A stretch of DNA of 64,000 nucleotides, from the IMG/VR virus record IMGVR_UViG_3300025266_000004, positions 1-64,000 of that record, one strand, 5' to 3'. The notes below the pieces were generated by a model. That model worked only from the letters and a program-made list of their open reading frames with translations. It was not told the origin of the DNA and searched no databases. This document shows, in pieces, positions 1-43,374 of the stretch. How positions within the stretch are numbered: the stretch's first letter is position 1; every line of letters begins with the position of its first letter. The DNA comes from a virus. A program made the position numbers and the translations under genes.

Positions 1-1
1 T

Positions 2-3000: not shown

Positions 3001-6000
3001 TGATTCTAAATTCTTAGATGAGTATAGTAAGGTACTTAGTGAGAACGATTTAAAGGAATACAAAGGTATCGAAGGTACTGATGCACAAGAGTTTACTACT
3101 GTTGCTGAACATCTTTATGTAATGCAAAAATTAGGTAAATTAACTGACAAGCAAATTGACTCTATACAAGATAGAGCTTTAAAAGGTACATTATCAGAAG
3201 AAGAACTAGGTTTAATATTCCAACCTATGAAACCTGTATTTGTAGGTCAACACATGGATAAAGATAATGATGTACAACGTATGTTATATATTAAGTCTTC
3301 TAGTTTTCCACTAGTACCTCAATTGACTAAAGGTTTGGAGATTGACAAATTACGTGTAGCAATGGAACACCCAACTAAAGGAGTTGATAGAGTTTCATTT
3401 AGCACAGCTAATAAAGTTGGTGATTTCGCTAAACCTACTACAGTTTTTGATACTGATGGTAATGTAGTTGCTGATTTAGATTTATCGTCTACTACTTTAA
3501 AACTAGAAAGAAAGTATTTCAAGATACAACAAGAAGTACCTTATAAAGCTAGTAAAGAGAAGATTAATGATGGTTCTCAACAAAGAAAGTTATTGTTTGC
3601 TAATATACTAGATGTCGAAGGTGTCAAAGAACTTAAAGCTGAGTATGAGGAAACATATAGACAATTATATGAGAACGATTACAAGGACTTAATACAGGAA
3701 TTAGATGTTCAACCTGATGGTTCTTTTGATAGATTTCAGTTACATGATGTACTAATCAAAGAAGCAGAAGATAGAAACTATAGTATAAATGATATACAAT
3801 CATTGAAAATAGATGAGAAAGGACACTTTGTATATCCACTTGCTTTTAATAATTCTGCATCTAAGTTTGAAGCTTTGCTAACATCTATTGTTGATAACAG
3901 AGTTAGAAAGAAGAAATTCAGAGGTAATTCTTATGTCTTAGGTACAGAAGAAGGATTCAAGTTTGCTAATAGTGTAGAAGAAACTAATTTAAATGCTTCA
4001 TCTATTGTATATACTAAAGATTGGACAGGTGAATTAAGACCTCAACGCTCTGAAACAGTAGACGGTAAAAAAGTAGTACAACCTGCTGAGATATTAATAC
4101 CTTTTAAATTCAGAGATAAGAATGGTAAATTACTAAACGCTAAAGACTTTGTAAATGCTGACGGAACATTAGATACAACTAAGTTAGATGAAGATATACT
4201 TAAGACTTTCGGGTTCAGAATACCGACACAAGGTTTAAATAGTATGTCATATATGAAGGTAGTTGGTTTCCTACCTAAATCAGCAGGTGATTTAATCATT
4301 GCACCTAGAGAATTTACTATTCAAATGGGTAGTGATTTTGATGTTGATAAACTATACTCATATATGTATAATACTGTTGAGTATAATGGTAATATTAGAG
4401 TTATAAATGATAAGTTAGTACAAGAGATTAAAGCTGATTTTGATGTTGAGAATTTAGATGAGTTGAAAGCTGAGTTTAATAAACAGGAACTTAAAGATGC
4501 TATTAAAGAGTATGGTGTAATTATTGAAAAAGCACAAATTGACTTTGATAATGGTATAGATAACGAACAGACTGGTGAACAACTAGAAGCTTTGTATGAT
4601 AAATTACAAGATAGTAAAGAGCTTAAAATGCTTGCTAAGTACGACCTCGATACTGTAAATACGATTAATTCTATTATTACAGGCAAGTACGCCTTACAGA
4701 ACAAGCTACTTGATATACATTTCGATATATTAGCTAATCCTGATAAGAGAATACAAAGTCAGATACTAGAACCTCTAGGATTTGGTACTCTTAAAGACGA
4801 TGCGGCTAAGATTGATGGATATTTAAAAGAGGATAAGATATTTAGTCCTTTATCAGATGAGTATCAAAAGATGAAATATATTAACGCAACTGCTGGTAAA
4901 GCAGGTGTAGGTGTATTTAGTATGGATAGTGTTTTTAATGCTTTATTACAAGGTGTAACAGAAGGTGTAGAATTAGTAGATATTAAAGGTAAAGCCATAT
5001 CTATTAAATTTGGTAAACATACTTCTAATGCTTTATCTGATAGTAAATCTGTTAAGGGTACAAGATATAAATCACAAGTTATTGCGGCTTATCAATCTGC
5101 TGCTGTAGATAACGAGAAAGAACAAATCTTAGACAAGTTAAATATCAACTCTCACACATTTGATGTAATTGCTATACTGAATCAGGTTGGATTTGAGGAA
5201 GATGTTGTTACAGCACTCATTAATCAACCTATTATTAGAGAGTATGTAAAACAAGTTATTAAAGCTAATGACATTACTAGTGGGAATATTAGTAATGTAG
5301 AGAGTTTTGTATATGATGAATTACGTAAACTATATAAATCTAATGTATACAAGTTTGATACACATAGTAATTTAGCTGATAAGAGTGCTAATGATATGTT
5401 AGAGAATATTAAGAATGTTCAAAACACATTATCGTATAATAATATACAATTAGCTGTTTTAGATAAGTTTTTATCACTTAAAGGTAAAGGTCTACAACTA
5501 AAAGAAATACAAAGTACAATCAATAGTGATAGTGCAGGTCTAAGTAAGTCTTTAATAGAGACACAAGCTAAACAAAGTTCTATTTTAAGTCTATATGGTA
5601 ATAAAGGTTTTTCAAATATTGAAAAACTTATTGGTGACTATAAGAGTGAAGCTGAGTTGAATGATCTTTCTGAGGAAGAGCAAGAGAAGTATTCACATTA
5701 TGCTGGATTAACGTACATTAAACCAAGTACTATTAATGGTTATGTAGCTGTATATGGACTAGCTTTAAATAACAAGATGTGGAGTAATGAATTTCATTAC
5801 CACAAAACAAATGTTAATAAAGCTTTTGATACTATAGTTAAACTTACTGGTAAAGAAGATGTATCTGTATCACAACAAAATACTCTAAAACAAGAGGTAT
5901 GGGGTAATATTAAGTCATATTTATTTACATCTCCTGAGAGTAACTTGTATAATAAAGATGTTACACAGTTACGTAACGAGTTATTGTTTGATAATGAAAC

Positions 6001-9000
6001 TAATGAATCACTAGCAACTAAGATTAAAGACTTACAAGGTTCTTCTATAGGTGTTAAGAATGCTTTTTTAAATAAGTTATCAACTAATATACAGAAAGGA
6101 CAAAAACCTTCTTTAGTTACATTCAATGCTAGTACTGGTGAGAACTTTGACGAGACTAATATATATGCTGCTTTTGTTGAACTATTAGTTAATGATAGAA
6201 AAATCAATGAAACTCTTACTACTAGAGAGCTTGCTGAGGACTTAATTAGATACCAATTTTTAACAGGTGGTTTACAACAAGCTAAACAGTTTATTAAGTA
6301 TATTCCTGTAGCATATTTAAACGAGATTGGTTTTTCTAAGTATTTAGATACCTCAATTGAAGGTTTAGATGCTGGATTTGTTAGACAATTCGTGCAAAAC
6401 AATGCAGGTAAAGCACCTAGACTGACAGAAGATATTTATGGTAGTGATGTTAGTAAGCTTGAGAAGTTTACTGTACCTACTGAGAGTATTGCTAAATTTA
6501 GTGATGCACTTGGTAATCTTTTACCTTACATATCTGTATATAATGGGTCTGCTGAATCTGGTTATAGTTTATATGAGAATGACGGTAATGGTACTTATCA
6601 TAAGATTGATACTTTAGGTAGTACTGATTTCAAAGAGTATAACATTAATAGTACATATGCTACTTCTACAATCAAATCTAATAACACTAATACTAAACTT
6701 GAAAGACCTACTTATACTAAGTCTACACCTGTTATCGAAGAATCTGAAATATTAAATTCTTATGGTATTAGTTTTACTACTAGTGAGACAGAACGTACAA
6801 GAAATTTTTTAACAAACGTTAAGAATAATAGTAATAACAAATTGTACAAGGTGTTAGCAGGTAAAATGTTAGACAACATTGATAAAACTAATACACCTTT
6901 AGTACTTGATAAAACTATTAATACAGATGGTAAACATTTAGACGGTACAGTATTCATTAATCCTAATAGAATTAAATCTACTGAACAACTAGAGAAGGTT
7001 TTACTACATGAATTAGTCCACGCATTTACTGTAAAAGGTTTAGAAGGTGGTAGTAGAAGTGCTGTAAGAATCAAAGGTTTATTCAATGAGTTTAAAGACA
7101 GTTTAAGTAAAGAAGAATTACAAACCGTATTAACTAAATTAGGTAAAATAAGAAAAGGTGAAAATATTACTTTCTCTCAAAATGAATTAGATGTTATATA
7201 CGGTGGTGTTAACGTTAAAGAGTTTGTAGCTTTAGTAATGACTTCAAAAGATATGCAGAAGTTGTTAAACAAAACTATGTATCTTAAAGATAAGAACTTC
7301 TTATTAGAACTTATAGATAGAATAGTTGAGGTGCTAAATACACTAGGACTTAAAAAGAGTTCAGATTTAAAGTTTGCTATACATGATATATTTGATTTAA
7401 TAGATTCTGTTGAAGCTACGAGTGAAGACTTTTTACCTAGTCAAGCTAGTACTTTTGAACTACAGATGAAGTTAGGTGTAATGAATAAGGATGGTAGTCA
7501 TGTGAAATATGATAATGTAAATGTTAGTAAATTGAAGAAAGAATTTGCCGATAAACTACCTAAAGGTTATACTATAAAAACACATAAAGTTGAGAACAAA
7601 ACTGTATTTTACGTTCAGCCGTTAATAGAAGAATATAGCGTCACAGTGGATGAAGACACCAACAAAGGAAGATATGGTAAATTTGGGAAACTAGTAAGGG
7701 AAACTGATAGTAGAATATCTTACATCAAATCGACTATTAGTAAAGCTAAACAAAGTGGTGATTTCAAAACTGCTATTGATCAGGAAGCGAGACTTGAAGA
7801 AGTTGAAAGTGATTTAGAGAGATTACTAGATGCAACTAAGTTAGAAGATATTGCTTTTTACGCTGAAAAAGATATCGCTGAGATAGGTGGTATATTAGAG
7901 AATCCAAATGCTACAGCTGAGAATTTAGATAAGGCTGAAAAGTTGATTCATATATGGCAAAAAGGTATTGATTTGTTCTTTTCTAAGGAAGAGAAAACAA
8001 GTGATATACTAGTAGATGAATTTGCTAAGTATCAAGTTAAAGCTGATAGACTAGGTGACAGACTAGCTAATAAACAAAATGAGGTAGCAAGGAAATTGAT
8101 TACTAGATTGACTGGTAAAGATATTAGTATTGCAGAAGCTTTTAAGGAGTTTAAAGATGTCAACGGTTTAACGTCTAGAACCCTCGATATCTCCCATGCT
8201 GACAATATTCTATTACAGGCTATTTGGAAAAATGTAAAATTAGCGAATAACGAAGCTAGACTTGAGACTGAAAAAGTTGTTAAGTCTGTAGACGAATTGA
8301 TTAGTAACGCTGATAGTTCTCTAGGTAAGGGTAGAGATAAGTATAAAATCTTTAAACAACTTACTAAAGGTGGTGAATGGACTGGTGATTTAGTTCACAG
8401 GTTCTCTAAAGAGTATTTCGATGAGAAAAGTACTAAGCTAAATAAAGCTAATAGAGTTAATACAAAAGCTGGTTGGAATAGTTACTTCAAATGGAGAAAA
8501 GAGAATGAGTTAATATTCGATGTTAGAATGTTATTTCCTGATACTGATTTATATACTACAACTTTACCTCAAAAAGTGACTGATAATCATATTAAAGAGT
8601 TAAAAGGTAATTTAGGTGAAAAGGGATATAAGAATTTCTATTCTAAGTTAAGTAAGAAATTAGAGCAATTTAAGATTCTAAGAGAACTTGAACAAGATAG
8701 AATTGAGTTAATGAACTTAGAACCTAGAGAGCAGGAGAAACAACTTAAGTTATGGGATTATAAAAATTCACCTTATTACGCTAGTGAAAGTTTCGCTACA
8801 GGAAAAGGATTAATAATTGATAAGAAGTTAATCAACTCTAAAGGTGCTGAACATACAATTGTAGTACCTAAAAAGATAGATAGTAAAGGTAATACAACAA
8901 AATGGTATGATTCTAGTTTTGAACAGATAGAAGATAATGACGCTTTATCTAATTTATATGATTATATGTTAGATACTTTTAATACGTTAAATACTATTCT

Positions 9001-11008
9001 ACCTGATAATCAAAAAAGAAGAATTAGAGAGAACACTGTACCTGAGATTAAGAAGAGTATTATTGAAGCTTTTTCAGATAATGGTATCAAAGGTGGTTTA
9101 GGTTCATGGTATAACAAGTTAATTCAAGATATATCAGTTAATGAACTAAGTGATACAACTTATGCAGAGAAAGATGCTGTAACTGGTGAAGTTAAGAAAC
9201 AACTTAAAGTTAAACACATTGTAGATAATACAGAGAAGTTTAAGGAGTTAATGAAGAGGGGTAGAATAGAGTTTGAGTTAGCTAACAACAAGAAACCTAA
9301 TATTGACGATATACATAAGATAAGAGACAATGTTAATAAGGAGTTATTAAAGGAGAAGTCATTTGATTTAGGTGTTATTATTAAAGCTTACAGTGGTGCT
9401 GTTTTAGCTTACAAACATAAATCTGTAGTTGAATCTGAATTAAAGCTTGTTAATAGTATTTTATCTAATGCTAAAGAGACTGAGTTTAATGCACAAGGAG
9501 GGAAACTTAAAACACCAGATGGTACACTAGCTAAAAAATCACAAGCTGATTCATACGTTAATGTCAAGGCAATGCTCAAACATTATACTGATAACTTCTA
9601 TGATGTAGGTAAGAAACTAGAAGGTGTTAGTGGTAAGAAGAGTTATACACCTCAACAGAAGAAAGAGAAGAAGAACATTGAACAACTGTTAGCTGAAAAT
9701 GAAGTAGCTTTTACTGAGAATAAGATAGATGAAAAGAAACGTGACTTAAATAAGAGTACACTTACTGAACAACTAGATAATTTAGGTTCTAATAAAGTAG
9801 CTTCTAAAATAGGTGATAAAGCTTTACAATATGTCCAACTTAAGGGTATGGCATATAATGTTATTAGTGGTTTTTCTAATATGGCTTTCGGTTTTGTTGA
9901 TAATATAACAGCTGCTGCTGATGGTAGGCTTTATAGTGGTAAAGATTACCGTAAAGGTTTTGGTATGGTACTACGTAGTATAGGAGGTAAATCAGAAGAT
10001 GCTAAGAAGATTACAAATCTAATGAAACATTTAGACGTATTAAAGGACGCATCGGATGAACTTTTCGAATCGTCTTCTAAGTCTGTTTTACAGAAAAGAA
10101 TGAAGCATTTAGCACCCTATGAAGTACAGAAACGTACAGAATACATAAATCAAGCACCTATTATGATTGCTATGTTAAATAGTAATAAAGTAGAAGGTAA
10201 AGAAACAACTTTATGGGAGTCTCTAAATGAAGATGGCTCAATCAAAGAAGGTAGTGGTTTAACTAAGAAACAACTTGATGATTTTAAAGTCAAATTAGAT
10301 CAAACGATTAAGATGCTTCACGGGAATTATGATACTGATTCAACTATAATGGGTAAAGCAACTATAACAGGCAGGGCTTTGATGCAGTTTAGAACATGGA
10401 TGTTTGAGGGTGCTCATAAGAGGTTCGGAGCTGAGAAGTTTGATAGTAATTTAGGTCTTACAAGAAAAGGTAGATACAGGAGTATATATGAAAATTTAGA
10501 TGTAAGTGCATTGATAACTACAAGTAAAGTACTACTTAAGAAACTTACTTTTAATACAGCTTTTAAGAATACTAAGTTTGAAGATAGATTTAATGAAGTT
10601 GATGCTGCTAATATGAAAGCTAACTTAACTGAGCTAATGATATACATGGGTCTATATGGAATGAGTATATTACTAAAGATGTCAATGGACGATGAAGATG
10701 AAAAGAATAACTTTATAGGTAATCATTTACTTAATCAAATGTTAAGACTTGAAACAGATATTACATTCTATACTAGTCCTGTTTCTTTTGAAGCCTTAAC
10801 TAAAAGTTCTGTACCTGCAATGTCATTGATAACAGATGTCGGACAATGGTTTGAAGCTACTGGTAAATTTGTAATTGGAGAAGATGAGATTAAATCAGGT
10901 GTTAATAGTGGTGATAGTAGATTACTAAGAGAGACATCACAAATGATCCCATTAGGTACACAAATCTATAGAATAAAAAGTGCAGGTAGTCAAATATTTG
11001 ATAAATAG
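2..11008 (+). CDS. Giant virion RNA polymerase polyprotein (crAss-like vRNAP, zincin domain, C-terminal helical cargo region); 5' partial
   Basis: The frame is open from position 2 (SEDIGELSYD...) into the ATG at 233. It contains FRIPTQ and MGSDFDVDK (DxDxD at 4334-4348), typical of crAss-like vRNAP, an HELVH zincin motif at 7007-7021, and a hydrophobic segment near the C-terminus. Confidence 0.92.
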   Translation, partial: SEDIGELSYDNYNDFVKSNTSTNLLSFDLGNGNFAYTIQPVIETSIGGISQVVKDTPIKETAKVEKKPTTQLASDDAMLGEDFSPSQLNLFEDDSNNKFNEKNIFTVTPKQSADKKAKSKAKISNKFIGFADGITGSSTKLYTEQAGKYANTGNYNNKDVIFISIGGRRGRTDIRKIQQQKTIKETIKALELGATVLTDNKDYTNISTYNEGEKWLKRVLESKKYSYNEIVVDGNKIGTWTKSINTTIGYKINYKALQQEIEETVLIKGFTASKQSILVDAIAYDINEQVINSGKLQQSQVFNNWLTYFKEQRSVFSEQGRDKVVAEFDKIIDSFDSIKLFTLKKVGKINGIQIKADTTVDGLRDLETHLEKTNFNDEATLQLDSKDTVSVKLKRFFSGVNELDENGKAIKPYMGLKKYVPFDVVYNEVSALLANTPADFGSMVDILEQYTQSKPYLESLIAKLQNTEQQTKDEFVVAMSKHKVDMVYLLWSKDGKTGNYNMITQNSNSNDIATAVADNWYEGLKSSKYVTKNSDNELVLSADISNVIEKLKKFSKDEPKIDELGDFLKSIGIDIDPRTLNDLKTNGLRSRGKRLEYKQLFNTANGVFNIMLNNLEKTKQSNLVDNNPFKDTSIKSLAIAEAKYNTKEFSNSFKNGEGNTIYSFSNNKYFVDRIRELKTNNKLQKDLLSLSYNGKSEWLQDLTSREDNLFKRTFNYFYLDSIKELGSTQKGKKLSNMSDTEQEITKLGLFWNRNTSVKEKGIDKRIVRMFYPTMSDKTTMVGLTTVAYNTKLALNGDVHKDTINKVYNSLIVPEISRIIKFQEEVKSTGIKGYDKGANIVYSIPEINNSSVFNEDGEIDFDVLSNPTKIKELKDIVEQHIDTLTENKLKYWQEVGINTKDFIDTNYKKFATEQVGEQNMLKFSATDFIVNTLLTNQNAFQLFIGDPALFYKSKSSNPIKKVEDTFENIGKRLASQIAPGMDLSDSENDTYKQGFIDDYISDSKFLDEYSKVLSENDLKEYKGIEGTDAQEFTTVAEHLYVMQKLGKLTDKQIDSIQDRALKGTLSEEELGLIFQPMKPVFVGQHMDKDNDVQRMLYIKSSSFPLVPQLTKGLEIDKLRVAMEHPTKGVDRVSFSTANKVGDFAKPTTVFDTDGNVVADLDLSSTTLKLERKYFKIQQEVPYKASKEKINDGSQQRKLLFANILDVEGVKELKAEYEETYRQLYENDYKDLIQELDVQPDGSFDRFQLHDVLIKEAEDRNYSINDIQSLKIDEKGHFVYPLAFNNSASKFEALLTSIVDNRVRKKKFRGNSYVLGTEEGFKFANSVEETNLNASSIVYTKDWTGELRPQRSETVDGKKVVQPAEILIPFKFRDKNGKLLNAKDFVNADGTLDTTKLDEDILKTFGFRIPTQGLNSMSYMKVVGFLPKSAGDLIIAPREFTIQMGSDFDVDKLYSYMYNTVEYNGNIRVINDKLVQEIKADFDVENLDELKAEFNKQELKDAIKEYGVIIEKAQIDFDNGIDNEQTGEQLEALYDKLQDSKELKMLAKYDLDTVNTINSIITGKYALQNKLLDIHFDILANPDKRIQSQILEPLGFGTLKDDAAKIDGYLKEDKIFSPLSDEYQKMKYINATAGKAGVGVFSMDSVFNALLQGVTEGVELVDIKGKAISIKFGKHTSNALSDSKSVKGTRYKSQVIAAYQSAAVDNEKEQILDKLNINSHTFDVIAILNQVGFEEDVVTALINQPIIREYVKQVIKANDITSGNISNVESFVYDELRKLYKSNVYKFDTHSNLADKSANDMLENIKNVQNTLSYNNIQLAVLDKFLSLKGKGLQLKEIQSTINSDSAGLSKSLIETQAKQSSILSLYGNKGFSNIEKLIGDYKSEAELNDLSEEEQEKYSHYAGLTYIKPSTINGYVAVYGLALNNKMWSNEFHYHKTNVNKAFDTIVKLTGKEDVSVSQQNTLKQEVWGNIKSYLFTSPESNLYNKDVTQLRNELLFDNETNESLATKIKDLQGSSIGVKNAFLNKLSTNIQKGQKPSLVTFNASTGENFDETNIYAAFVELLVNDRKINETLTTRELAEDLIRYQFLTGGLQQAKQFIKYIPVAYLNEIGFSKYLDTSIEGLDAGFVRQFVQNNAGKAPRLTEDIYGSDVSKLEKFTVPTESIAKFSDALGNLLPYISVYNGSAESGYSLYENDGNGTYHKIDTLGSTDFKEYNINSTYATSTIKSNNTNTKLERPTYTKSTPVIEESEILNSYGISFTTSETERTRNFLTNVKNNSNNKLYKVLAGKMLDNIDKTNTPLVLDKTINTDGKHLDGTVFINPNRIKSTEQLEKVLLHELVHAFTVKGLEGGSRSAVRIKGLFNEFKDSLSKEELQTVLTKLGKIRKGENITFSQNELDVIYGGVNVKEFVALVMTSKDMQKLLNKTMYLKDKNFLLELIDRIVEVLNTLGLKKSSDLKFAIHDIFDLIDSVEATSEDFLPSQASTFELQMKLGVMNKDGSHVKYDNVNVSKLKKEFADKLPKGYTIKTHKVENKTVFYVQPLIEEYSVTVDEDTNKGRYGKFGKLVRETDSRISYIKSTISKAKQSGDFKTAIDQEARLEEVESDLERLLDATKLEDIAFYAEKDIAEIGGILENPNATAENLDKAEKLIHIWQKGIDLFFSKEEKTSDILVDEFAKYQVKADRLGDRLANKQNEVARKLITRLTGKDISIAEAFKEFKDVNGLTSRTLDISHADNILLQAIWKNVKLANNEARLETEKVVKSVDELISNADSSLGKGRDKYKIFKQLTKGGEWTGDLVHRFSKEYFDEKSTKLNKANRVNTKAGWNSYFKWRKENELIFDVRMLFPDTDLYTTTLPQKVTDNHIKELKGNLGEKGYKNFYSKLSKKLEQFKILRELEQDRIELMNLEPREQEKQLKLWDYKNSPYYASESFATGKGLIIDKKLINSKGAEHTIVVPKKIDSKGNTTKWYDSSFEQIEDNDALSNLYDYMLDTFNTLNTILPDNQKRRIRENTVPEIKKSIIEAFSDNGIKGGLGSWYNKLIQDISVNELSDTTYAEKDAVTGEVKKQLKVKHIVDNTEKFKELMKRGRIEFELANNKKPNIDDIHKIRDNVNKELLKEKSFDLGVIIKAYSGAVLAYKHKSVVESELKLVNSILSNAKETEFNAQGGKLKTPDGTLAKKSQADSYVNVKAMLKHYTDNFYDVGKKLEGVSGKKSYTPQQKKEKKNIEQLLAENEVAFTENKIDEKKRDLNKSTLTEQLDNLGSNKVASKIGDKALQYVQLKGMAYNVISGFSNMAFGFVDNITAAADGRLYSGKDYRKGFGMVLRSIGGKSEDAKKITNLMKHLDVLKDASDELFESSSKSVLQKRMKHLAPYEVQKRTEYINQAPIMIAMLNSNKVEGKETTLWESLNEDGSIKEGSGLTKKQLDDFKVKLDQTIKMLHGNYDTDSTIMGKATITGRALMQFRTWMFEGAHKRFGAEKFDSNLGLTRKGRYRSIYENLDVSALITTSKVLLKKLTFNTAFKNTKFEDRFNEVDAANMKANLTELMIYMGLYGMSILLKMSMDDEDEKNNFIGNHLLNQMLRLETDITFYTSPVSFEALTKSSVPAMSLITDVGQWFEATGKFVIGEDEIKSGVNSGDSRLLRETSQMIPLGTQIYRIKSAGSQIFDK

Positions 11009-37167: not shown

Positions 37168-37329
37168 TTATCTGTTATATATTGCTAATGTATTTATTAC
37201 TATTATTATTATACATAACCATGCTATTACACCCATTGTTATCTCTACAAATCGTTTATATATTGTGTATGTCTTAAAAAAGAATAAATGGTATGTCGCT
37301 TCAAGGTATTTATATATGTATTTCTTCAT
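37168..37329 (-). CDS. Small membrane peptide (start MKKYIYK)
   Basis: C-terminal hydrophobic helix; a variant of the leader motif lies upstream. Confidence 0.5.
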   Translation of the reverse strand: MKKYIYKYLEATYHLFFFKTYTIYKRFVEITMGVIAWLCIIIIVINTLAIYNR

Positions 37330-37372
37330 GTTATTGTTTATTGTTAAATGTGTTAATATAATGTTATAAAAC

Positions 37373-37482
37373 ACCAATCTAAATAGTACATCTTCTCTGT
37401 GCCTTAAATGTCTGACGGATGGTGTACTTTCAATATATACTTCAACGATTCAAAGCTCCATGTATATATCTATTAGATTGGT
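37373..37482 (-). ncRNA. Candidate structured RNA element (three-way junction)
   Basis: 10-bp closing stem ACCAATCTAA/TTAGATTGGT with two internal stems; no ORF. Confidence 0.45.
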
Positions 37483-37493
37483 ATTGTAATTAG

Positions 37494-37595
37494 TAGTCAA
37501 GACAGGATTCGAACCTGTAAAACTGCTACCTCGTAAGGTTTCGTCATAATACCCATGGATTTACATACTGCGTCTACCAGTTTCGCCACTTGACT
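37494..37595 (-). tRNA. tRNA-like RNA with non-canonical anticodon domain (isotype undetermined)
   Basis: Acceptor stem AGTCAAG/CTTGACT, D arm GCG-AAACTGGTAGA-CGC, T arm ACAGG-TTCGAAT-CCTGT, and about 50 nt between D and T arms with no clean anticodon stem-loop. Confidence 0.75.
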
Positions 37596-37610
37596 ATTAT
37601 AATTAATACT

Positions 37611-37927
37611 CTATTTTATATATTTAAAGTTATGGTGATTGATATACTCTATATCATCTAATCTATTATCTCTTTCAACAAAGTCTTCTTTGTTAGTTAC
37701 CTCTTTAAATTTATTAGTACGTACTACCTCATTACCACCTCTATATATACCAAAGTATCTCCAACTTGTTAATTCATAGAATAACCTACTACAGTTTCTA
37801 ATCTCATCTCTAGTAGTTACAGCGGTAACATTAGGCACTGTTTCTTTAATTGTTTTAACAGTAGTAGTTTCAATATTTAATTCTGTTGTAGTCTCCTCTG
37901 TTGTACTATATACTATTATTGTTTGCA
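37611..37927 (-). CDS. Hypothetical early protein
   Basis: About 105 aa, with the leader motif upstream. Confidence 0.6.
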
Positions 37928-37952
37928 TATCTTTGGTTTATTTGTTGTTAAA

Positions 37953-38429
37953 TTATCCTATTGTCCATCTGTAGACTATACAAGATTCTGAACATTTGAT
38001 TCTTTTCTCAGTATCACCATCTTTAACTATACGATATTTAATATTATCAATAGTTACAGTTCTTAGTATAGTATATATTTCAGGTTTTCCGTATAGTTTA
38101 CAACCACCACCTTTGTCTTCATATGATATATTCTCTTCTATATCAGAACTAGTAGCAGTCTTTTCTCTTTGTCTAATTTCAGCTTTTTCTTCTAGTATAA
38201 TCTCACCTTTATAAATATTATATTCCTTACTCTTTGAACTGTGCCATTGAATAGCAAATATATCAAAACTAATCTTATACATAGATTTGATGATATCTTC
38301 AACTAATTCACAACCAATGAAATCATTATGAGTAAGACCTACTTCCTCCCATTCTCCACTATCATTGAGAATATGTGATATAATATATTTAGAATACTTT
38401 ACTCTGTTGTTTATGTCTGTTATTTCCAT
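37953..38429 (-). CDS. Hypothetical early protein
   Basis: 158 aa, with the leader motif upstream. Confidence 0.65.
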   Translation of the reverse strand: MEITDINNRVKYSKYIISHILNDSGEWEEVGLTHNDFIGCELVEDIIKSMYKISFDIFAIQWHSSKSKEYNIYKGEIILEEKAEIRQREKTATSSDIEENISYEDKGGGCKLYGKPEIYTILRTVTIDNIKYRIVKDGDTEKRIKCSESCIVYRWTIG

Positions 38430-38457
38430 TATTATTTGTGTTTGTTGTTAAAATATA

Positions 38458-38604
38458 ATATAAACTCTCTTATCTACTATCAATTGTAGATGTACATAAA
38501 GACTAATAACTCATACTACTTGAATCTAGTACTTAGTCACAAGAATTGAACTTGACTCTCTCTAGATATAGACCACTACTTGTGTTATTAAAGAGAGTTT
38601 ATAT
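38458..38604 (-). ncRNA. Candidate structured RNA element (multibranch)
   Basis: Perfect 14-bp closing stem ATATAAACTCTCTT/AAGAGAGTTTATAT with nested stems. Confidence 0.5.
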
Positions 38605-38625
38605 AATATGTTGTAATACTATTTG

Positions 38626-38697
38626 TTACAGTATTGTAAATAGTATTATAAACACCATTGTAAAATCTACACCAATATAGACTGTTAAATGTTATAA
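38626..38697. repeat. Intergenic repeat, copy A
   Basis: Shares TATAAACACCATTGTAAAAT and TGTAAAATCTACAC...AAATGTTATAA with copy B. Confidence 0.8.
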
Positions 38698-38913
38698 TTT
38701 GTACACTTTAATTATATACTCTATTTCCTTTTTCCAAAATCTTACAGGATTGTTTAAATCATTAGCTACAATAAATGTCTTATTGTTAATTGCTTTAATA
38801 GAGTCTTTCCAATATTTAATATAATTATTATAATGACTTGTATTATGTCTTAAATCAAAGTCTTTTTTCTTTTGTAATTTGATCTTATAATTATCTACTT
38901 GTCCATTGTCCAT
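38692..38913 (-). CDS. Hypothetical early protein
   Basis: 73 aa, with the leader motif upstream. Confidence 0.55.
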   Translation of the reverse strand: MDNGQVDNYKIKLQKKKDFDLRHNTSHYNNYIKYWKDSIKAINNKTFIVANDLNNPVRFWKKEIEYIIKVYKL

Positions 38914-38946
38914 TTTATTTGTTGTTAAATCCGTTGTTATAATATG

Positions 38947-39417
38947 TTATAAATATGGTGTTGTATCATTACTTACAACATATTTAAGAGTATCTTTCAT
39001 CGAATCCATTTCAGCTTCAAATTCCTCTATTTCTTTGTCTGTGTGATTACCTGAATAAATACATTTATTATCAACGAATAAACTACAACCAGGTCTGTAC
39101 TGTTTATTGTATAGTAAATGACTACGAAGATTAGTAGCTTTAACGCCATTAATAACATGACCTCCATTACCATATAATCTTAGTACAGAATGTATTGTTT
39201 CACTAGAATTTACATCTAAAATACTATTCTTAATTATATACTCTCTACAATTTTGTATTGCAACTGTTCTTGCGTGTGCTTCTCTCTCTGCTACATCAGG
39301 TATAGGATTTTTTACTACTATACCACTTAAAAAATGTGTACTAAAAAATAGATGAATGTCAGAGCCATTAGCATCAGGTTTGATATGTAGTTTATACAAT
39401 TCTATTAGTTCTTTCAT
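38947..39417 (-). CDS. Hypothetical early protein
   Basis: 156-aa ORF. Confidence 0.65.
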   Translation of the reverse strand: MKELIELYKLHIKPDANGSDIHLFFSTHFLSGIVVKNPIPDVAEREAHARTVAIQNCREYIIKNSILDVNSSETIHSVLRLYGNGGHVINGVKATNLRSHLLYNKQYRPGCSLFVDNKCIYSGNHTDKEIEEFEAEMDSMKDTLKYVVSNDTTPYL

Positions 39418-39442
39418 GTTGTTAAATATTATTTGTTATATT

Positions 39443-39550
39443 ACTTATTACAGCAGTGTAAATGTCACTATAAACACCATTGTAAAATTGTACAACTATT
39501 ATTTGTACTTTTGTAAAATCTACACTAATATACACTGTAAAATGTTATAA
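39443..39550. repeat. Intergenic repeat, copy B
   Basis: The 21-mer ACTTATTACAGCAGTGTAAAT is identical to 39921-39941; the remainder matches copy A with an insertion of about 30 bp. Confidence 0.8.
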
Positions 39551-39888
39551 AATGACAATACACAACAAACACTTATTCGCTTGTTAGTGTATTATACAGT
39601 TTAGGTCTATTAAATCCCTTATAAATTAATTCTTATTGTAACTATTTTCATGGTGCACAAAGTTATTATTAGAACGCAGAATATTACCACTTGTAGCTCT
39701 GTTAAACAGTCACTACTACCTTTACTTAATAAATGTCTAAGTAATTATTAGAGTACTTTAGTCTCTCTATTTATGTGCTTATATAATTGACCATTCTGAT
39801 ATGTAGTGTAATCTAGTTACAGTAATTGTTAATTTATAATTTGATAATCCCTCTATTTAGGAGGTTTAATCTGTTGCGTATTGTCATT
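39551..39888 (-). ncRNA. Candidate large structured ncRNA (about 340 nt)
   Basis: 17-bp terminal stem (one G-U on the minus strand) and several nested helices; no ORF in the track. Confidence 0.55.
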
Positions 39889-39920
39889 AAATGTATTATT
39901 GTGTACTTATTAATTGTAGT

Positions 39921-40030
39921 ACTTATTACAGCAGTGTAAATAGTACTATAAGTAGCATTGTGTAATTATTAAACTATTACGAAGCCTTTTGTGTAATATG
40001 TCGTAAAAACCACTAAACTATGTGATAAAA
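39921..40030. repeat. Intergenic repeat, copy C (diverged)
   Basis: ACTTATTACAGCAGTGTAAATAGTACTATAA...CATTG matches the start of copies A and B. Confidence 0.65.
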
Positions 40031-40117
40031 TATGACTAAAATGGTGAAATAATCGTGATTTGAGTATTAGGAACGTATGAAAAGGTGTATATTTATAATA
40101 GAGTGGTATAATAGGAG

Positions 40118-40182
40118 CTAGAGGGTTTGGTTTCTAAGCGACCAGCGGGAGCTGGTGTCCGTCGGTATACCATCCCCTCTAG
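40118..40182. other. GC-rich interrupted hairpin
   Basis: CTAGAGGG/CCCTCTAG, TGGT/ACCA and ACCAGC-GGGA-GCTGGT. Confidence 0.6.
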
Positions 40183-40213
40183 TATCCCAAGCATCTAATT
40201 ATTCACCCAAATT

Positions 40214-40960
40214 TCAATCTGCAAATTCAACTCTCCCAAAATTAACTGTATAATCAACACCACCTACTCTATAATGGTACTCACCTTTTACATTATCAAC
40301 AGCAGTTACTTTAGCTACTCTTTCTGCATCTTCTTTCCAGTATATCCAATGATCCACTAAATCGTGCTTTCTATCAACATTTTCACACTTATCTCCACCT
40401 TTATCTTCGTCTACTAATTTAGTAAATCTAGAATGTGTATTACGAAGCATCTTTCCCTTATAATAATGATATATATGTTCACCATATTCAATGTGTTCAG
40501 TAGTTCCAACTCCGTGAATAGTAAATGTACCTTCGTTAAGTAGTGTAAACCCTCTACCTACTAAACTATGTGTTCTACTAATCACTCCAGGTGTTAATTC
40601 GTCTTTATTAACAGGTACATAAACATCATCCTCACTATGTATCCCAAGAGTATCAGCTTGTCCTTTTAAACCTTCAGCGTATTCAGCATTACTAACTTCA
40701 ATTGCTTTACCCATCTTTTGATATGTAGTTTCACATAAATCTAAGTCAGGTGATTTCAGTACTGTAATATCAAACAAAGCTATAAGTATTATATGTGCAA
40801 AATCATCTATAATCAATATAAGTTTAAAATCATTACTTTTAGATTGATGGACAGCATCTAAAACACCTTTAAAAGTCATCCCACTGTTCTTTTCTTCAAT
40901 TTCCACTGTAGAACCTACTAAACTATTTAGTTTCTCTACTATTATATCTCTTGTATTCAT
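40214..40960 (-). CDS. Hypothetical early protein
   Basis: 248-aa ORF. Confidence 0.7.
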   Translation of the reverse strand: MNTRDIIVEKLNSLVGSTVEIEEKNSGMTFKGVLDAVHQSKSNDFKLILIIDDFAHIILIALFDITVLKSPDLDLCETTYQKMGKAIEVSNAEYAEGLKGQADTLGIHSEDDVYVPVNKDELTPGVISRTHSLVGRGFTLLNEGTFTIHGVGTTEHIEYGEHIYHYYKGKMLRNTHSRFTKLVDEDKGGDKCENVDRKHDLVDHWIYWKEDAERVAKVTAVDNVKGEYHYRVGGVDYTVNFGRVEFAD

Positions 40961-40970
40961 ATCTCTTTAT

Positions 40971-41096
40971 TTATTTGTTTTTAAAATCATAACAAGCAAG
41001 TATTACACCACTATAATGTACACTAAAACCAACTACTACATTACTACTTGTTATAAATACTAATTCACCATTCTCATTAATCTTATAACTACTCAT
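40971..41096 (-). CDS. Small hypothetical protein (41 aa, not in ORF track)
   Basis: MSSYKINENGELVFIT..., with leader AAATAAAGAT-ATG. Confidence 0.45.
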   Translation of the reverse strand: MSSYKINENGELVFITSSNVVVGFSVHYSGVILACYDFKNK

Positions 41097-41143
41097 ATCT
41101 TTATTTGTTGAAATCTAAGCCACAGTATACCAGTAAATACTAG

Positions 41144-41293
41144 TTAACCTACTAGCATTACTTGACTATACATCTCTGTTAGCCCTGTTATTTCTGTCTT
41201 TACGAATTTAGGTGTGTCAACTCTTAACATACCATTAGTATCAACAACGAGATTACCCATTGTTAATACTTCAGTTTCTTTCTTCTTTCTCAT
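41144..41293 (-). CDS. Small hypothetical protein (49 aa, not in ORF track)
   Basis: MRKKKETEVLTMGNL..., with a TAATG overlap onto the upstream gene. Confidence 0.55.
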   Translation of the reverse strand: MRKKKETEVLTMGNLVVDTNGMLRVDTPKFVKTEITGLTEMYSQVMLVG

Positions 41294-41589
41294 TAGTTAC
41301 AAGCTATCATTTCATTTATGGTAAACTTGTTATTGTACCATTTCTCAATGTGGAACACACCCTTACGAATATATCCTCTAACCTCAACTAAATGAGGTAT
41401 TGCTTTGATATCACCTCTGTTGAACACAGCAGGTATGAAATCACTATTATTTTCAATATTATTAACGTCACTATTATTGACATCAACAATACCATCAGTA
41501 TATACTACTCTAATCCTAGGTAATACTCTATTTATTTTCTTTGGTTCTTTATTATTTGACATAATGTGGTAAATTAGTTGGTTAAACAA
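41293..41589 (-). CDS. Hypothetical early protein (true start probably MSNNK)
   Basis: ORF in early-gene context. Confidence 0.55.
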   Translation of the reverse strand: MFNQLIYHIMSNNKEPKKINRVLPRIRVVYTDGIVDVNNSDVNNIENNSDFIPAVFNRGDIKAIPHLVEVRGYIRKGVFHIEKWYNNKFTINEMIACN

Positions 41590-41665
41590 AAGCTATAAGT
41601 ATAGTTACAGTGCTCATAGCACCTGCAAGTATCCCAAGCATAAAATGTATCTTAGATTCATTCAT
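41582..41665 (-). CDS. 27-aa membrane peptide (not in ORF track)
   Basis: MNESKIHFMLGILAGAMSTVTILIAFV. Confidence 0.4.
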   Translation of the reverse strand: MNESKIHFMLGILAGAMSTVTILIAFV

Positions 41666-41929
41666 AATAAGCAGTATTTAGGTATTAAAACAATAACTAC
41701 ACTATAGTATTACCTATAGCATAGTTATTATAAACACTTACAAGGTTCTCATCCTTGAATTACTCAGGTGATTAATAAAGTTCGTCAGCCTCTCTTGGTT
41801 AGTTGGTAGAATATAACTTGTTGTACATTTCTTTACCTATGTACACATTATATTCTACTGATTGTTTAACTTTATTAATTTGCACCTCAACCCTCTATGA
41901 TTGGGTAAATGTTTATTATTTAAATGATA

Positions 41930-42358
41930 TTAGAAAGGCATATCATCATCACCTTTATCAGCAGATGCTACAGGAGCACTTGGTTGAGCTATTGCTTGAC
42001 GCATTGCTACATCAATCAATTGATTAGTAGCTCTAGTACTCAATGCAATAGATTCATTAGTATTCTTTGGAAAGTCTTTTCCGTATACTCCTTCTTCGCC
42101 GTCCTTCTTAATATAAGTATCCCCAGCTTTCACATTCTCTACATCCATTGACATAGTACTACCACCAGTCTGTACTAAAAGCTTTAATACGAAAGCATTT
42201 GGTGCACCACATCTAGTAGCTAGTCTAGCTAGTTGTCCACTAGATTGTTTGAATACACCAGTAGCACTTGGATTGTCTGCTGATTTGTTTGTTACAATTA
42301 CACCAGTACCGTCAGCGTTAATTTGAATTTCTTTGATTGTTAATGTTACATTTTTCAT
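41930..42358 (-). CDS. First early gene; protein with SSB-type C-terminal tail
   Basis: 142 aa, ending ...SADKGDDDMPF. Confidence 0.75.
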   Translation of the reverse strand: MKNVTLTIKEIQINADGTGVIVTNKSADNPSATGVFKQSSGQLARLATRCGAPNAFVLKLLVQTGGSTMSMDVENVKAGDTYIKKDGEEGVYGKDFPKNTNESIALSTRATNQLIDVAMRQAIAQPSAPVASADKGDDDMPF

Positions 42359-42594
42359 AAGTCTTAAAGTTTAAAAGTTAATAAGTTATTATATTATTCT
42401 ACTACCTATTCGTTATAAGTAGATTTTGAGGATTAAAAACACCATCGGGGTGATTCAATCCAAAATTTAGTGAGGGGGGATGAATGGAGGTGGTTCTCGC
42501 TTCGACATATATCCCCACTTTTATTTCTACAAATTTTTATTTTTTATATCCACTTTACCATCATCCAATACGTCGCCTAGTATATATGCCAGAG

Positions 42595-42766
42595 AGTCTC
42601 CTAATATCTTGTGTTTAATATCTTGTGTCATCTATGTCTAATATCTCCCGATTTATCATTTGTAGAGTCTCCGAATAGTCTCAATTTCACCATGTTGTAA
42701 AGTCTCCAAATAGTCGCTAAGTCGGCATGTCGAATAGTCTCCAGAATCTCACTTTATATAGTCTCC
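42595..42766 (+). repeat. AGTCTCC iteron-like direct repeats
   Basis: Exact copies start at 42595, 42666, 42701, 42736 and 42760, with further variants nearby. Confidence 0.75.
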
Positions 42767-43374
42767 AATCAGCAGTCTAAAAATCTCAATTATCACCACC
42801 TTGTACAGTCTTTACAATCTCCAGTTATATACCACTCTATACACTTGTAAAACCACCATTGTAGATTGTACTATATAGAGACACCGTGACACCATTTTTT
42901 CATTAACGGCTAGACACCAAGTAGAGCAGTCTAAATAGTTGTTCAATATTTAGAGTAGGATTTGGGATGGGATTTGGAGTGCTCTAAAAGATGATACTTT
43001 AGATACCAAAGATGAACCTATAATAAACACCATGTGGACTGCTATAAATTGTTATATAGTATATGGTGCATTGGTGACTCCACGAGTGGGTATAAAAAAT
43101 CCCATATACATTGGTGTAGTATATAGGTGTGGTGTTTTCTTGTTACCTTGAATAAGATATTTAAAGGTACAAGAAATTCCTGACATATCCTAATTTTGTC
43201 GTACATTATTTCAAATTAAATTTGGCGTATCAGCCTGTAATGTAGAAAATAGTGACGTGGTGGTTCTACTATTTGGAGGTATTTAAAAATAATGAAATAA
43301 AGACTATACATAATTAGGTTTTACGGTTTATTGTCTATATATTAGTGTATCTTTAGGCAGAAGAACTCACAGCA

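What the first reader, a model, noticed from the sequence alone, without database searches (positions are those of the whole stretch)
39551..39888. Candidate novel structured ncRNA of about 340 nt in the early region
Seen: an ORF-free segment with nested long-range helices at 39551-39567/39872-39888 (17 bp), 39619-39629/39829-39839 (11 bp), 39637-39644/39814-39821 (8 bp) and 39655-39659/39774-39778, plus inner hairpins. The one imperfection in the outer stem is G-U on the minus strand but A-C on the plus strand, which favours a minus-strand RNA. It is bracketed by repeat copies C and B. I see no tmRNA, RNase P or group I intron hallmarks. Inference: an undescribed phage RNA, possibly a protein sponge, anti-defence RNA or scaffold. 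The AT-rich context raises the chance of spurious pairing.
Basis: partly seen in the sequence, partly recalled or inferred. Interest (0 to 1): 0.72.

Follow-up and report, generated by a model that had tools for sequence, protein, structure and literature searches.

The report
Hairpin-closed noncoding gap, crAss-like phage
A 338-base gene-free stretch in the early region of a marine crAss-like phage has ends that can pair in a 17-base helix, so it may be a processed early RNA, but its interior folds no better than shuffled sequence and no relatives or RNA data exist to test it.

Summary
The window is an 81-kb marine crAss-like phage record with no close relatives. The stretch 39551-39888 is truly ORF-free in all six frames, and no single stop-codon reassignment opens it. 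It lies between two copies (B, C) of a promoter-like repeat on the coding (minus) strand.

The folding signal, however, comes only from the outer 17-bp inverted repeat:
- The whole stretch gives z -4.45 (+) and -4.15 (-).
- Without the outer stem, z is -0.47 (-) and -1.25 (+).
- The 169-nt core gives z +0.15.

The wobble-pair argument for the minus strand is cancelled by two G-U pairs on the plus strand in the inner repeat.

The repeats still look non-random. The only two inverted repeats of at least 16/17 in the genome both close ORF-free gaps just after a cassette copy. The only repeat of at least 22/26 is nested inside this one.

There is no Rfam match, no homologue, no other copy and no RNA run.

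Best reading (about 0.4): a noncoding segment of the early leftward transcript whose closing helix is the functional part, for processing or insulation. It would resemble the abundant early long noncoding RNAs of phage phi14:2.

Rivals are decayed cargo between mobile promoter cassettes, or a DNA-level site. The scan has not found this on other DNA.

The parts
39551..39888 (-). ORF-free 338-nt segment, candidate early noncoding RNA domain or spacer (GC 27.8%)
   Evidence: no ORF; stops dense in all six frames; MFE -75/-74 kcal/mol; z -4.45/-4.15; GC
39872..39888 (-). 5' arm (in minus-strand sense) of the outer 17-bp closing helix
   Evidence: I2, 94% complementary; mean pair probability 0.95-0.97 on minus; one of only two inverted repeats of at least 16/17 in the 81-kb genome
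39551..39567 (-). 3' arm of the outer closing helix. It overlaps the upstream edge of repeat C.
39814..39839 (-). 5' arm of the nested 26-nt imperfect inverted repeat (22/26)
   Evidence: I1, 85%; the only repeat of at least 22/26 in the genome; simulations average 0.275
39619..39644 (-). 3' arm of the nested 26-nt imperfect inverted repeat
39907..40031 (-). Repeat copy B, directly upstream (minus sense) of the segment. It carries a sigma-70-like TTTACA-16-TACAAT site and a 10-codon ATG...TAA cassette at 39958-39926.
   Evidence: (10 of 12 promoter match at 39940-39913, though the site count in the region equals the shuffle expectation)
39429..39553 (-). Repeat copy C, directly downstream of the segment and upstream of the 156-aa gene. 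It has four TTTACA boxes spaced 24, 31 and 24 nt.
38453..38609 (-). Sister element: a 157-nt ORF-free stretch closed by the genome's other 16/17 inverted repeat (38453-38469/38593-38609). It lies directly after repeat copy A (38599-38697) and 23 nt before the start of the 158-aa gene.
   Evidence: (z -2.25 on minus, -2.88 on plus for 38458-38604)
38947..39417 (-). Downstream gene, 156 aa, unknown function (phrog_14040)
40214..40960 (-). Upstream gene, 248 aa, no relatives. The N-terminus gives weak, sub-threshold Sm-like matches.

Best explanation
The stretch is a noncoding part of the early, leftward (minus-strand) transcription unit of a marine crAss-like phage. It would be transcribed from the promoter-like repeat B just upstream, or by read-through from the 248-aa gene. 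The two ends of the 338-nt segment then pair in a 17-bp helix.

The closing helix, not the interior, is the feature that looks selected. I infer that it acts as a processing or insulating stem. It is a double-stranded RNA of the kind host RNase III cuts in rRNA precursors and in T7 early transcripts. Cleavage would release a loop RNA of about 300 nt and separate the upstream message from the message that starts at repeat C. The released RNA may accumulate like the abundant early long noncoding RNAs of phage phi14:2.

Shown: the segment is noncoding; its place is between two repeat copies on the sense strand; the helices exist and are rare in this genome.

Inferred: that it is transcribed, that it is processed, and that it has any role in trans.
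For: 1. Noncoding DNA is rare here. ORFs of at least 45 aa cover 95.4% of the 81-kb genome. Eight of the 9 ORF-free gaps of at least 120 nt lie at 37.4-43.4 kb, and 39551-40213 is the longest.

2. All neighbouring genes are on the minus strand.

3. Repeat B lies directly upstream and holds the best sigma-70-like match of the region.

4. Only two inverted repeats of at least 16/17 with a 30-500 nt gap exist in the genome. Both have both arms inside ORF-free gaps, and each starts just after a repeat copy (A or B). Markov simulations give a mean of 0.77 such repeats per genome. By my own arithmetic, about 0.8% of possible placements put both arms in ORF-free gaps. That expects about 0.006 against 2 observed. 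The thresholds were set after the fact, so this is rough.

5. The only repeat of at least 22/26 in the genome is nested inside the outer one (simulations average 0.275).

6. The outer helix keeps a probability of 0.97 when 914 nt of context are folded.

7. Precedent. In phi14:2 two long early intergenic regions are transcribed above most genes from the earliest time point, and their function is unknown (passages). The first 9 kb of phi14:2 is likewise 25% ORF-free.
Against: - The interior is no more stable than shuffles, so there is no sign of a complex fold.
- The two strands fold equally well, and G-U pairs are split between them. This fits plain Watson-Crick symmetry at the DNA level as well as it fits RNA.
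- No terminator-like site follows on the minus strand.
- Promoter-like matches in the region are no more frequent than in shuffles: 16 found against a mean of 16.1.
- No homologue exists, so there is no covariation test.
- phi14:2's early region shows no inverted repeat of at least 16/17 and no sequence similarity to this arm. The analogy rests on position only.
- One such repeat per genome is close to the chance expectation of 0.77.
Confidence: 0.4

Rival explanations
1. The segment is non-functional cargo. Repeats A, B and C are mobile early-promoter cassettes that shuffle small genes. This resembles the promoter-early stem-loop cassettes of T4-type phages (recalled from Arbiol et al. 2010, not read here). 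On this reading, the stretch between B and C is a decayed or truncated gene, or recombination debris, and its inverted repeats are leftovers of the rearrangement.
For: - B and C are 71% identical over 125 nt and flank the segment.
- The 3' arm of the outer repeat overlaps the edge of the B/C similarity.
- The interior folds like random sequence.
- A 17-codon ORF starts with an ATG inside the 5' arm, at the spot where repeat C is followed by a gene start.
- The flanking genes are orphans, which fits a fast-turnover region.
Against: - No residual protein or DNA similarity to any other part of the window. The only significant tblastn hits were three frames that overlap the segment itself, plus one isolated 22-residue match at E 4e-4; blastn reached at best E 0.066.
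- Phage genomes delete useless DNA quickly, yet this is the longest gap in a 95% coding genome.
- Two nested rare inverted repeats, and a sister element with the same layout after copy A, are hard to explain as debris.
Confidence: 0.28
2. The feature works at the DNA level. The two arms would be paired binding sites for a protein, or the palindromic spacer between two sets of phased TTTACA boxes would be part of a replication origin or of the unknown early promoter of the virion RNA polymerase.
For: - Complementarity is equal on both strands.
- Repeat C carries four TTTACA boxes spaced 24, 31 and 24 nt, and repeat A carries two spaced 24 nt. This looks iteron-like.
- The phi14:2 virion polymerase was assayed on denatured phage DNA, and no common motif was found upstream of its early transcripts (passages). 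A structural DNA signal is therefore not excluded.
Against: - Arms 304 bp apart cannot extrude as a cruciform.
- GC content (27.8%) is no lower than the surroundings, so there is no special unwinding element.
- The arm motif does not recur in a cluster elsewhere: 6 matches with at most 1 mismatch in the window, against 2.96 expected.
- The cumulative GC-skew minimum lies near 42 kb, not here, although gene orientation confounds it.
Confidence: 0.2
3. The segment is a miniature transposable element (MITE), or an invertible DNA segment bounded by its 17-bp terminal inverted repeats.
For: The size (338 bp), AT-richness, lack of coding capacity, terminal repeat of 16/17 and subterminal repeat of 22/26 all resemble bacterial MITEs and invertons (the family descriptions are recalled, not read here).
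Against: - No second copy in the window or in the genome.
- The terminal arm found only chance-level single matches in 9 viral contigs.
- A both-arms pattern found one unrelated hit across the prokaryote genomes.
- There is no clean target-site duplication; the flanks agree at 8 of 11 positions, read.
- The phage has no tyrosine or serine recombinase.
- The contigs of the one DNA run are identical to the window and show no inverted form. Contigs drop rare variants, so this point is weak.
Confidence: 0.05
4. The segment encodes one or more very small proteins, for example the 17-aa ORF at 39887-39834 on the minus strand or the 21-aa hydrophobic ORF from TTG 39874 on the plus strand.
For: Short ORFs exist. 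The repeats themselves carry 10-codon ATG...TAA frames of constant length.
Against: ORFs of this length are expected by chance in AT-rich DNA. None has the TTTAACAAC motif that stands before 5 of the 10 start codons listed in the arm. There are no homologues to test for coding constraint.
Confidence: 0.05

Closest known systems
Early long noncoding RNAs of Cellulophaga crAss-like phage phi14:2 (g004-g005 and g005-g006 intergenic regions)
   Same: Both are marine crAss-like phages. Both have long ORF-free gaps confined to the arm of small early genes: 25% of phi14:2's first 9 kb is ORF-free, and 8 of the 9 long gaps here lie in one 6-kb arm. Both gaps are on the sense strand of the early unit. 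The function in phi14:2 is unknown.
   Different: There is no sequence similarity. phi14:2's early region has no closing inverted repeat of at least 16/17 and no obvious flanking cassette repeats. Expression is shown for phi14:2 and unknown here. The transcript boundaries of the phi14:2 RNAs are in supplementary tables that I could not open.
RNase III processing stems: rRNA precursor stalks and phage T7 early-mRNA sites (textbook knowledge, recalled)
   Same: A long-range or local double-stranded RNA of roughly two helical turns is formed by sequences that flank a unit within a polycistronic transcript. Cleavage releases the unit and sets the message ends.
   Different: The stem here is 17 bp with one G-U, at the short end for RNase III. 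No cleavage data exist. The host and its RNase III are unknown.
Promoter-early stem-loop (PeSL) mobile regulatory cassettes of T4-type phages (recalled, not read here)
   Same: Diverged repeats of about 100 nt that carry early-promoter-like boxes punctuate a region of small orphan early genes.
   Different: The hairpin inside the cassette is not kept in copy C (z +1.0). The cassettes here flank ORF-free segments as well as genes. No recombination products have been seen.
Large phage-associated structured RNAs in Rfam (GOLLD, ROOL, HEARO and similar)
   Same: They are noncoding, hundreds of nucleotides long, and often phage-borne.
   Different: No Rfam model matches even at E up to 10. Those families have many conserved, covarying helices, whereas here the interior fold is at chance level.

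Membership tests
Any Rfam 15 family | Match to a covariance model at or above the gathering score | tested here: not met
   the whole window gives only a tRNA hit at 37494-37595; nothing in 39551-39888 better than E 3.7, and all bit scores are far below the gathering scores.
phi14:2-type early long noncoding RNA of crAss-like phages | Long ORF-free intergenic region within the early arm of a crAss-like phage, on the sense strand | tested here: met
   the major capsid protein is 36-38% identical to Crassvirales. Searches show the ORF-free gap and the minus-strand gene arm. That the arm is 'early' is inferred from gene content and position.
phi14:2-type early long noncoding RNA of crAss-like phages | Abundant transcript from the earliest time of infection | not testable with these tools
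   No RNA run is listed for this DNA. There is no cultured host.
phi14:2-type early long noncoding RNA of crAss-like phages | Sequence or structure homology to the phi14:2 RNAs | tested here: not met
   blastn of 37300-42500 against phi14:2 bases 1-9000 (L003) gave no hit. Searches show no comparable closing repeats.
RNase III processing stem | Stable double-stranded RNA of about 11-22 bp formed by the flanks of the unit | tested here: met
   17 bp, probability 0.95-0.97 on the minus strand, robust to context. This is a prediction only.
RNase III processing stem | Cleavage in the stem, in vivo or in vitro | not testable with these tools
   Needs an experiment.
MITE | Terminal inverted repeats | tested here: met
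   16 of 17.
MITE | Multiple copies, and target-site duplication | tested here: not met
   single copy; no related copy in viral contigs or prokaryote genomes with these ends. The flanks match at 8 of 11 positions only.
Invertible segment (inverton) | Site-specific recombinase, and both orientations present | tested here: not met
   no Phage_integrase or Resolvase domain in the phage; only one orientation in the contigs. The second point is weak, and a host enzyme is not excluded.
Retron noncoding RNA | Adjacent reverse transcriptase | tested here: not met
   no RVT_1 domain in the genome.
Y RNA / Ro ribonucleoprotein (crAss001 has an early TROVE protein) | TROVE-domain protein, and a Y RNA model match | tested here: not met
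   no TROVE domain; no Y RNA or YrlA hit.

The most novel reading that the evidence does not exclude
The early arm of this marine crAss-like phage is an RNA-producing array. Repeated promoter cassettes would each launch a noncoding RNA domain closed by a long-range helix: 157 nt after copy A and 338 nt after copy B. These sit beside a tRNA-like RNA and a GC-rich hairpin RNA. The helices would be processing signals that release stable RNAs used in host takeover or counter-defence, possibly bound by the neighbouring 248-aa protein with a faint Sm-like N-terminus. A bolder variant is that the hairpin-closed elements or cassettes are the still-unknown, structure-dependent early promoters of the crAss virion RNA polymerase.
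Probability: 0.15. Interest if true: 0.7.

Novelty: new member of a known kind. Interest (0 to 1): 0.3.

Why it matters
crAss-like phages are among the most abundant viruses known. In the one marine model studied, the most abundant early transcripts include long noncoding RNAs of unknown function, and the early promoters of the virion RNA polymerase are also unknown.

This unrelated marine crAss-like genome confines nearly all its noncoding DNA to the early arm. It marks two of those gaps with rare closing helices placed just after repeated cassettes. That gives concrete sites for end mapping, RNase III assays and promoter tests.

On present evidence it is a lead, not a discovery. The claim of a large, intricately folded RNA does not survive the shuffle controls.

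Tried and rejected
Relatives:
- The search for related loci with the 156-aa and 248-aa flanking proteins in viral contigs found none. The 156-aa protein in metagenome contigs also found none.
- The search for homologous proteins returned only the protein itself for the 156-aa gene and nothing for the 248-aa gene.
- The terminase found 4 loci at 33% identity only, too distant for noncoding comparison.
- tblastn of the 156-aa protein against phages found 26 records with partial matches, in unrelated Bacillus, Pseudomonas and other phages.
- blastn of 39300-40300 against phages found no match.
- Exact-pattern scans gave 23 and 9 viral loci, all short chance matches with no extended similarity. 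This includes a 26-nt identity to L032 that lies on a gene start there.
- A 21-mer pattern found 0 metagenome hits.
- A both-arms pattern found 1 unrelated Anaerolineales contig.

Expression: no RNA holder is listed. The single DNA run (contigs, possibly the source sample) is identical over 37300-42600. Its one spurious joint has 21-nt sides.

Decayed paralogue: tblastn of 409 open frames of the window, and blastn of the rest of the window, against the segment found nothing real.

Alternative genetic code: rejected.

Retron, Ro/Y RNA, inverton: no RT, TROVE, integrase or resolvase in the genome.

Sm-like partner protein: SM-ATX scores E 9e-4 for the full protein and 1.6e-4 for the N-terminal 90 aa, both below the cut-off. 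LSM scores E 0.13. Atlas structure hits to Rof, LSM and SM-ATX have TM 0.27-0.30 by query. PDB sequence search found 0 hits. The AlphaFold single-sequence model has pLDDT 32.5 and is unusable. This stays a lead only.

Cassette hairpin: it is not conserved in copy C.

Literature:
- Searches were badly targeted and useless.
- One search found 22 papers holding both 'crAss-like' and 'non-coding RNA'; 15 were listed. Only the phi14:2 preprint bears on phage noncoding RNAs.
- One search found 0 papers.
- I read passages (find mode) of 10.1101/2020.03.07.982082 and PMC8375218, not the whole texts.
- Supplements are closed, so the phi14:2 tables with transcript coordinates were not seen.
- Arbiol 2010 (PeSL), the inverton and MITE literature, and RNase III biology are recalled, not read.

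Full report
**What the DNA is.** The window is bases 1-64000 of an 81,336-base IMG/VR virus record, estimated 93% complete. The only public run that holds the stretch is a marine metagenome. The major capsid protein matches Crassvirales phages at 36-38% identity over at least 96% of its length. The terminase, portal and head protein hit phage families. A 3591-aa ORF at 233-11008 is the size of the giant virion RNA polymerase gene of such phages. Genes from about 11 to 42.4 kb run on the minus strand. The stretch from 37.3 to 42.5 kb holds small orphan genes upstream of the replication genes. By analogy with phi14:2 and crAss001 I take this to be the early arm; that is an inference.

**The observation.**
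- In the thermodynamic ensemble these pair with probabilities of 0.90-0.99 on either strand. They persist when the fold is extended to 39300-40213. The 5-bp helix is likely only on the minus strand (0.68 against 0.01).
- The segment is noncoding. No minus-strand ORF reaches 24 aa. Each of the six frames of 39418-40213 has 20-25 stops in 264-265 codons. No single stop reassignment opens more than 106 codons.
- The flanking repeats are real: 39429-39553 and 39907-40031 are 71% identical. A third copy lies at 38599-38697.

**Is it more than chance?**
- The full 338 nt folds better than all 100 dinucleotide shuffles on both strands (z -4.45 and -4.15).
- The excess is entirely the outer stem. Without it, 39571-39868 gives z -0.47 on minus (61 of 200 shuffles fold as well) and -1.25 on plus (20 of 200). 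The 169-nt core gives z +0.15.
- Aligning the left half against the reverse complement of the right half gives z 5.0 with the outer arms and 1.3 without them.
- Against 717 genomic windows of the same length, the candidate ranks in the lowest 47 (+) and 25 (-). After GC correction it ranks 7 and 14. Its borders were chosen to fit the stem, so this is generous.
- The picture of a large multi-helix RNA therefore has no thermodynamic support.

**The inverted repeats themselves do look non-random.**
- Repeats of at least 16/17 with a 30-500 nt gap occur twice in the 81-kb genome. First-order Markov genomes give a mean of 0.77, and 10 of 60 have two or more.
- Both observed repeats lie wholly inside ORF-free gaps. 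Each begins just downstream (minus sense) of a repeat copy: 38453/38593 after copy A, and 39551/39872 after copy B.
- From the gap list, I calculate that only about 0.8% of possible placements put both arms in ORF-free DNA. About 0.006 such repeats are then expected and 2 are seen. This is my own arithmetic with thresholds set after the fact.
- The single repeat of at least 22/26 in the genome is the inner one here (simulations average 0.275), nested within the outer.

**Strand.** The inner repeat has two T-G pairs on plus that become A-C on minus (read), and the two MFEs differ by 1 kcal/mol. Structure gives no strand call. The case for a minus-strand RNA rests on context:
- all neighbouring genes are on minus;
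- repeat B, directly upstream in that sense, has the best sigma-70-like site of the region (TTTACA-16-TACAAT);
- repeats A and C occupy the same position before genes.

Two cautions apply. Promoter-like sites in the region are no more frequent than in shuffles (16 against 16.1). No terminator-like site follows the segment on minus.

**Context.** ORFs of at least 45 aa cover 95.4% of the genome. Eight of the 9 uncovered gaps of at least 120 nt lie between 37.4 and 43.4 kb, and 39551-40213 (663 nt) is the longest. The same arm holds:
- a tRNA-like sequence (Rfam tRNA at 37.8 bits, but no ARAGORN call);
- a 57% GC hairpin at 40118-40182 in a 29% GC gap;
- the 157-nt sister element.

**Precedent.** In crAss-like phage phi14:2, two long early intergenic regions are transcribed above most genes from the first time point. 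They are called long noncoding RNAs of unknown function. No common motif was found upstream of early transcripts (passages of bioRxiv 10.1101/2020.03.07.982082). The first 9 kb of phi14:2 is 25% ORF-free. It shares no sequence with this arm, and has no inverted repeat of at least 16/17 and no comparable cassette repeats.

**What could not be done.** No homologue of the segment or of its flanking genes was found in phage records, IMG/VR, JGI metagenomes, the 5.8-billion-protein set or prokaryote genomes. No RNA run is listed. The one DNA run's contigs are identical to the window and show no inversion.

**Reading.** I rate at about 0.4 that this is a noncoding part of the early leftward transcript in which the closing helix is the functional element. 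The helix would be a processing or insulating stem of the RNase III type. It would free a loop RNA of about 300 nt and uncouple the upstream message from the one that starts at repeat C. The freed RNA may accumulate as in phi14:2. Transcription, cleavage and any trans role are inferred.

**Rivals.**
- Decayed cargo between mobile promoter cassettes (0.28). The random-like interior and the overlap of the arm with the repeat edge favour it. The lack of any residual similarity and the rarity of noncoding DNA in this genome count against it.
- A DNA-level site, such as an origin, paired protein sites, or a structural promoter for the virion polymerase (0.2). Strand symmetry and the phased TTTACA boxes favour it.
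- A MITE or inverton (0.05). There are no other copies, no recombinase and one orientation only.
- Micro-proteins (0.05).

**Comparison and novelty.** The segment belongs to no Rfam family. It is not homologous to the phi14:2 RNAs, and it fails the tests for retron, Ro/Y RNA, MITE and inverton. In position it resembles the phi14:2 early noncoding RNAs. In form it resembles an RNase III processing stalk. I file it as a new, unverified member of a known kind: noncoding early-region RNA in crAss-like phages.

What remains of interest is the arm-wide pattern of cassettes followed by helix-closed gaps.

**Verdict.** Interest 0.3.

Noticed in passing
window 40118-40182 (-): A 65-nt hairpin with 56.9% GC sits in a 29% GC gap, 31 nt after the stop of the 248-aa gene. 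Folding 40105-40200 gives z -3.40 (minus) and -3.19 (plus). No U-tract follows and no Rfam match was found. It could be a terminator-like or stabilising 3' structure, or a small RNA.
   Followed up: partly
window 38453-38609 (-): This is the genome's other inverted repeat of at least 16/17. It closes a 157-nt ORF-free element that starts right after repeat copy A and ends 23 nt before the start codon of the 158-aa gene. The layout is the same as the finding's.
   Followed up: partly
window 37494-37595 (-): Rfam tRNA model match at 37.8 bits (gathering score 29). The acceptor, D and T arms are intact, but about 37 extra nt replace the anticodon arm. ARAGORN calls no tRNA anywhere in the window.
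   Followed up: partly
window 37378-43374: Eight of the 9 ORF-free gaps of at least 120 nt in the 81-kb genome lie in this 6-kb arm, which is about 37% ORF-free. The rest of the genome is about 2% ORF-free (my arithmetic). The first 9 kb of phi14:2 shows the same pattern.
   Followed up: yes
window 38626-38658, 39448-39480, 39926-39958, 42413-42445 (-): There are four 33-nt ATG...TAA frames of exactly 10 codons that encode hydrophobic peptides. Three sit inside repeats A, C and B. The fourth, at the head of the arm, shares ATGGTGTTT. They could be leader peptides or promoter cores. The internal hairpin is not conserved in copy C.
   Followed up: partly
window 40214-40960 (-): The 248-aa orphan protein just upstream of the gap gives faint Sm-like signals at residues 10-49. 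SM-ATX scores E 1.6e-4 at 22.2 bits, below the 29.8 cut-off, and LSM scores E 0.13. The Atlas model resembles the small barrels of Rof, LSM and WYL. The AlphaFold single-sequence model was unusable (pLDDT 32.5).
   Followed up: partly
window 41585-41924: The 338-nt windows starting at 41585 and 41698 are among the most stable in the genome on both strands (-79.7/-87.9 and -81.8/-84.8 kcal/mol). They overlap the 264-nt gap after the 142-aa gene.
   Followed up: no
window 39417, 38913, 38429, 37928, 37328 (-): A TTTAACAA(C/T)AA-type motif stands 2-20 nt before 5 of the 10 start codons listed in the arm (also family D5). It may be a translation-initiation or promoter element typical of this phage or its host.
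   Followed up: no
window 41875-41937 (+): Weak match to the S15-Flavobacteria ribosomal leader model: 26.9 bits against a gathering score of 46.5, E 2. It is probably chance. I mention it only because a Flavobacteriia host is plausible.
   Followed up: no
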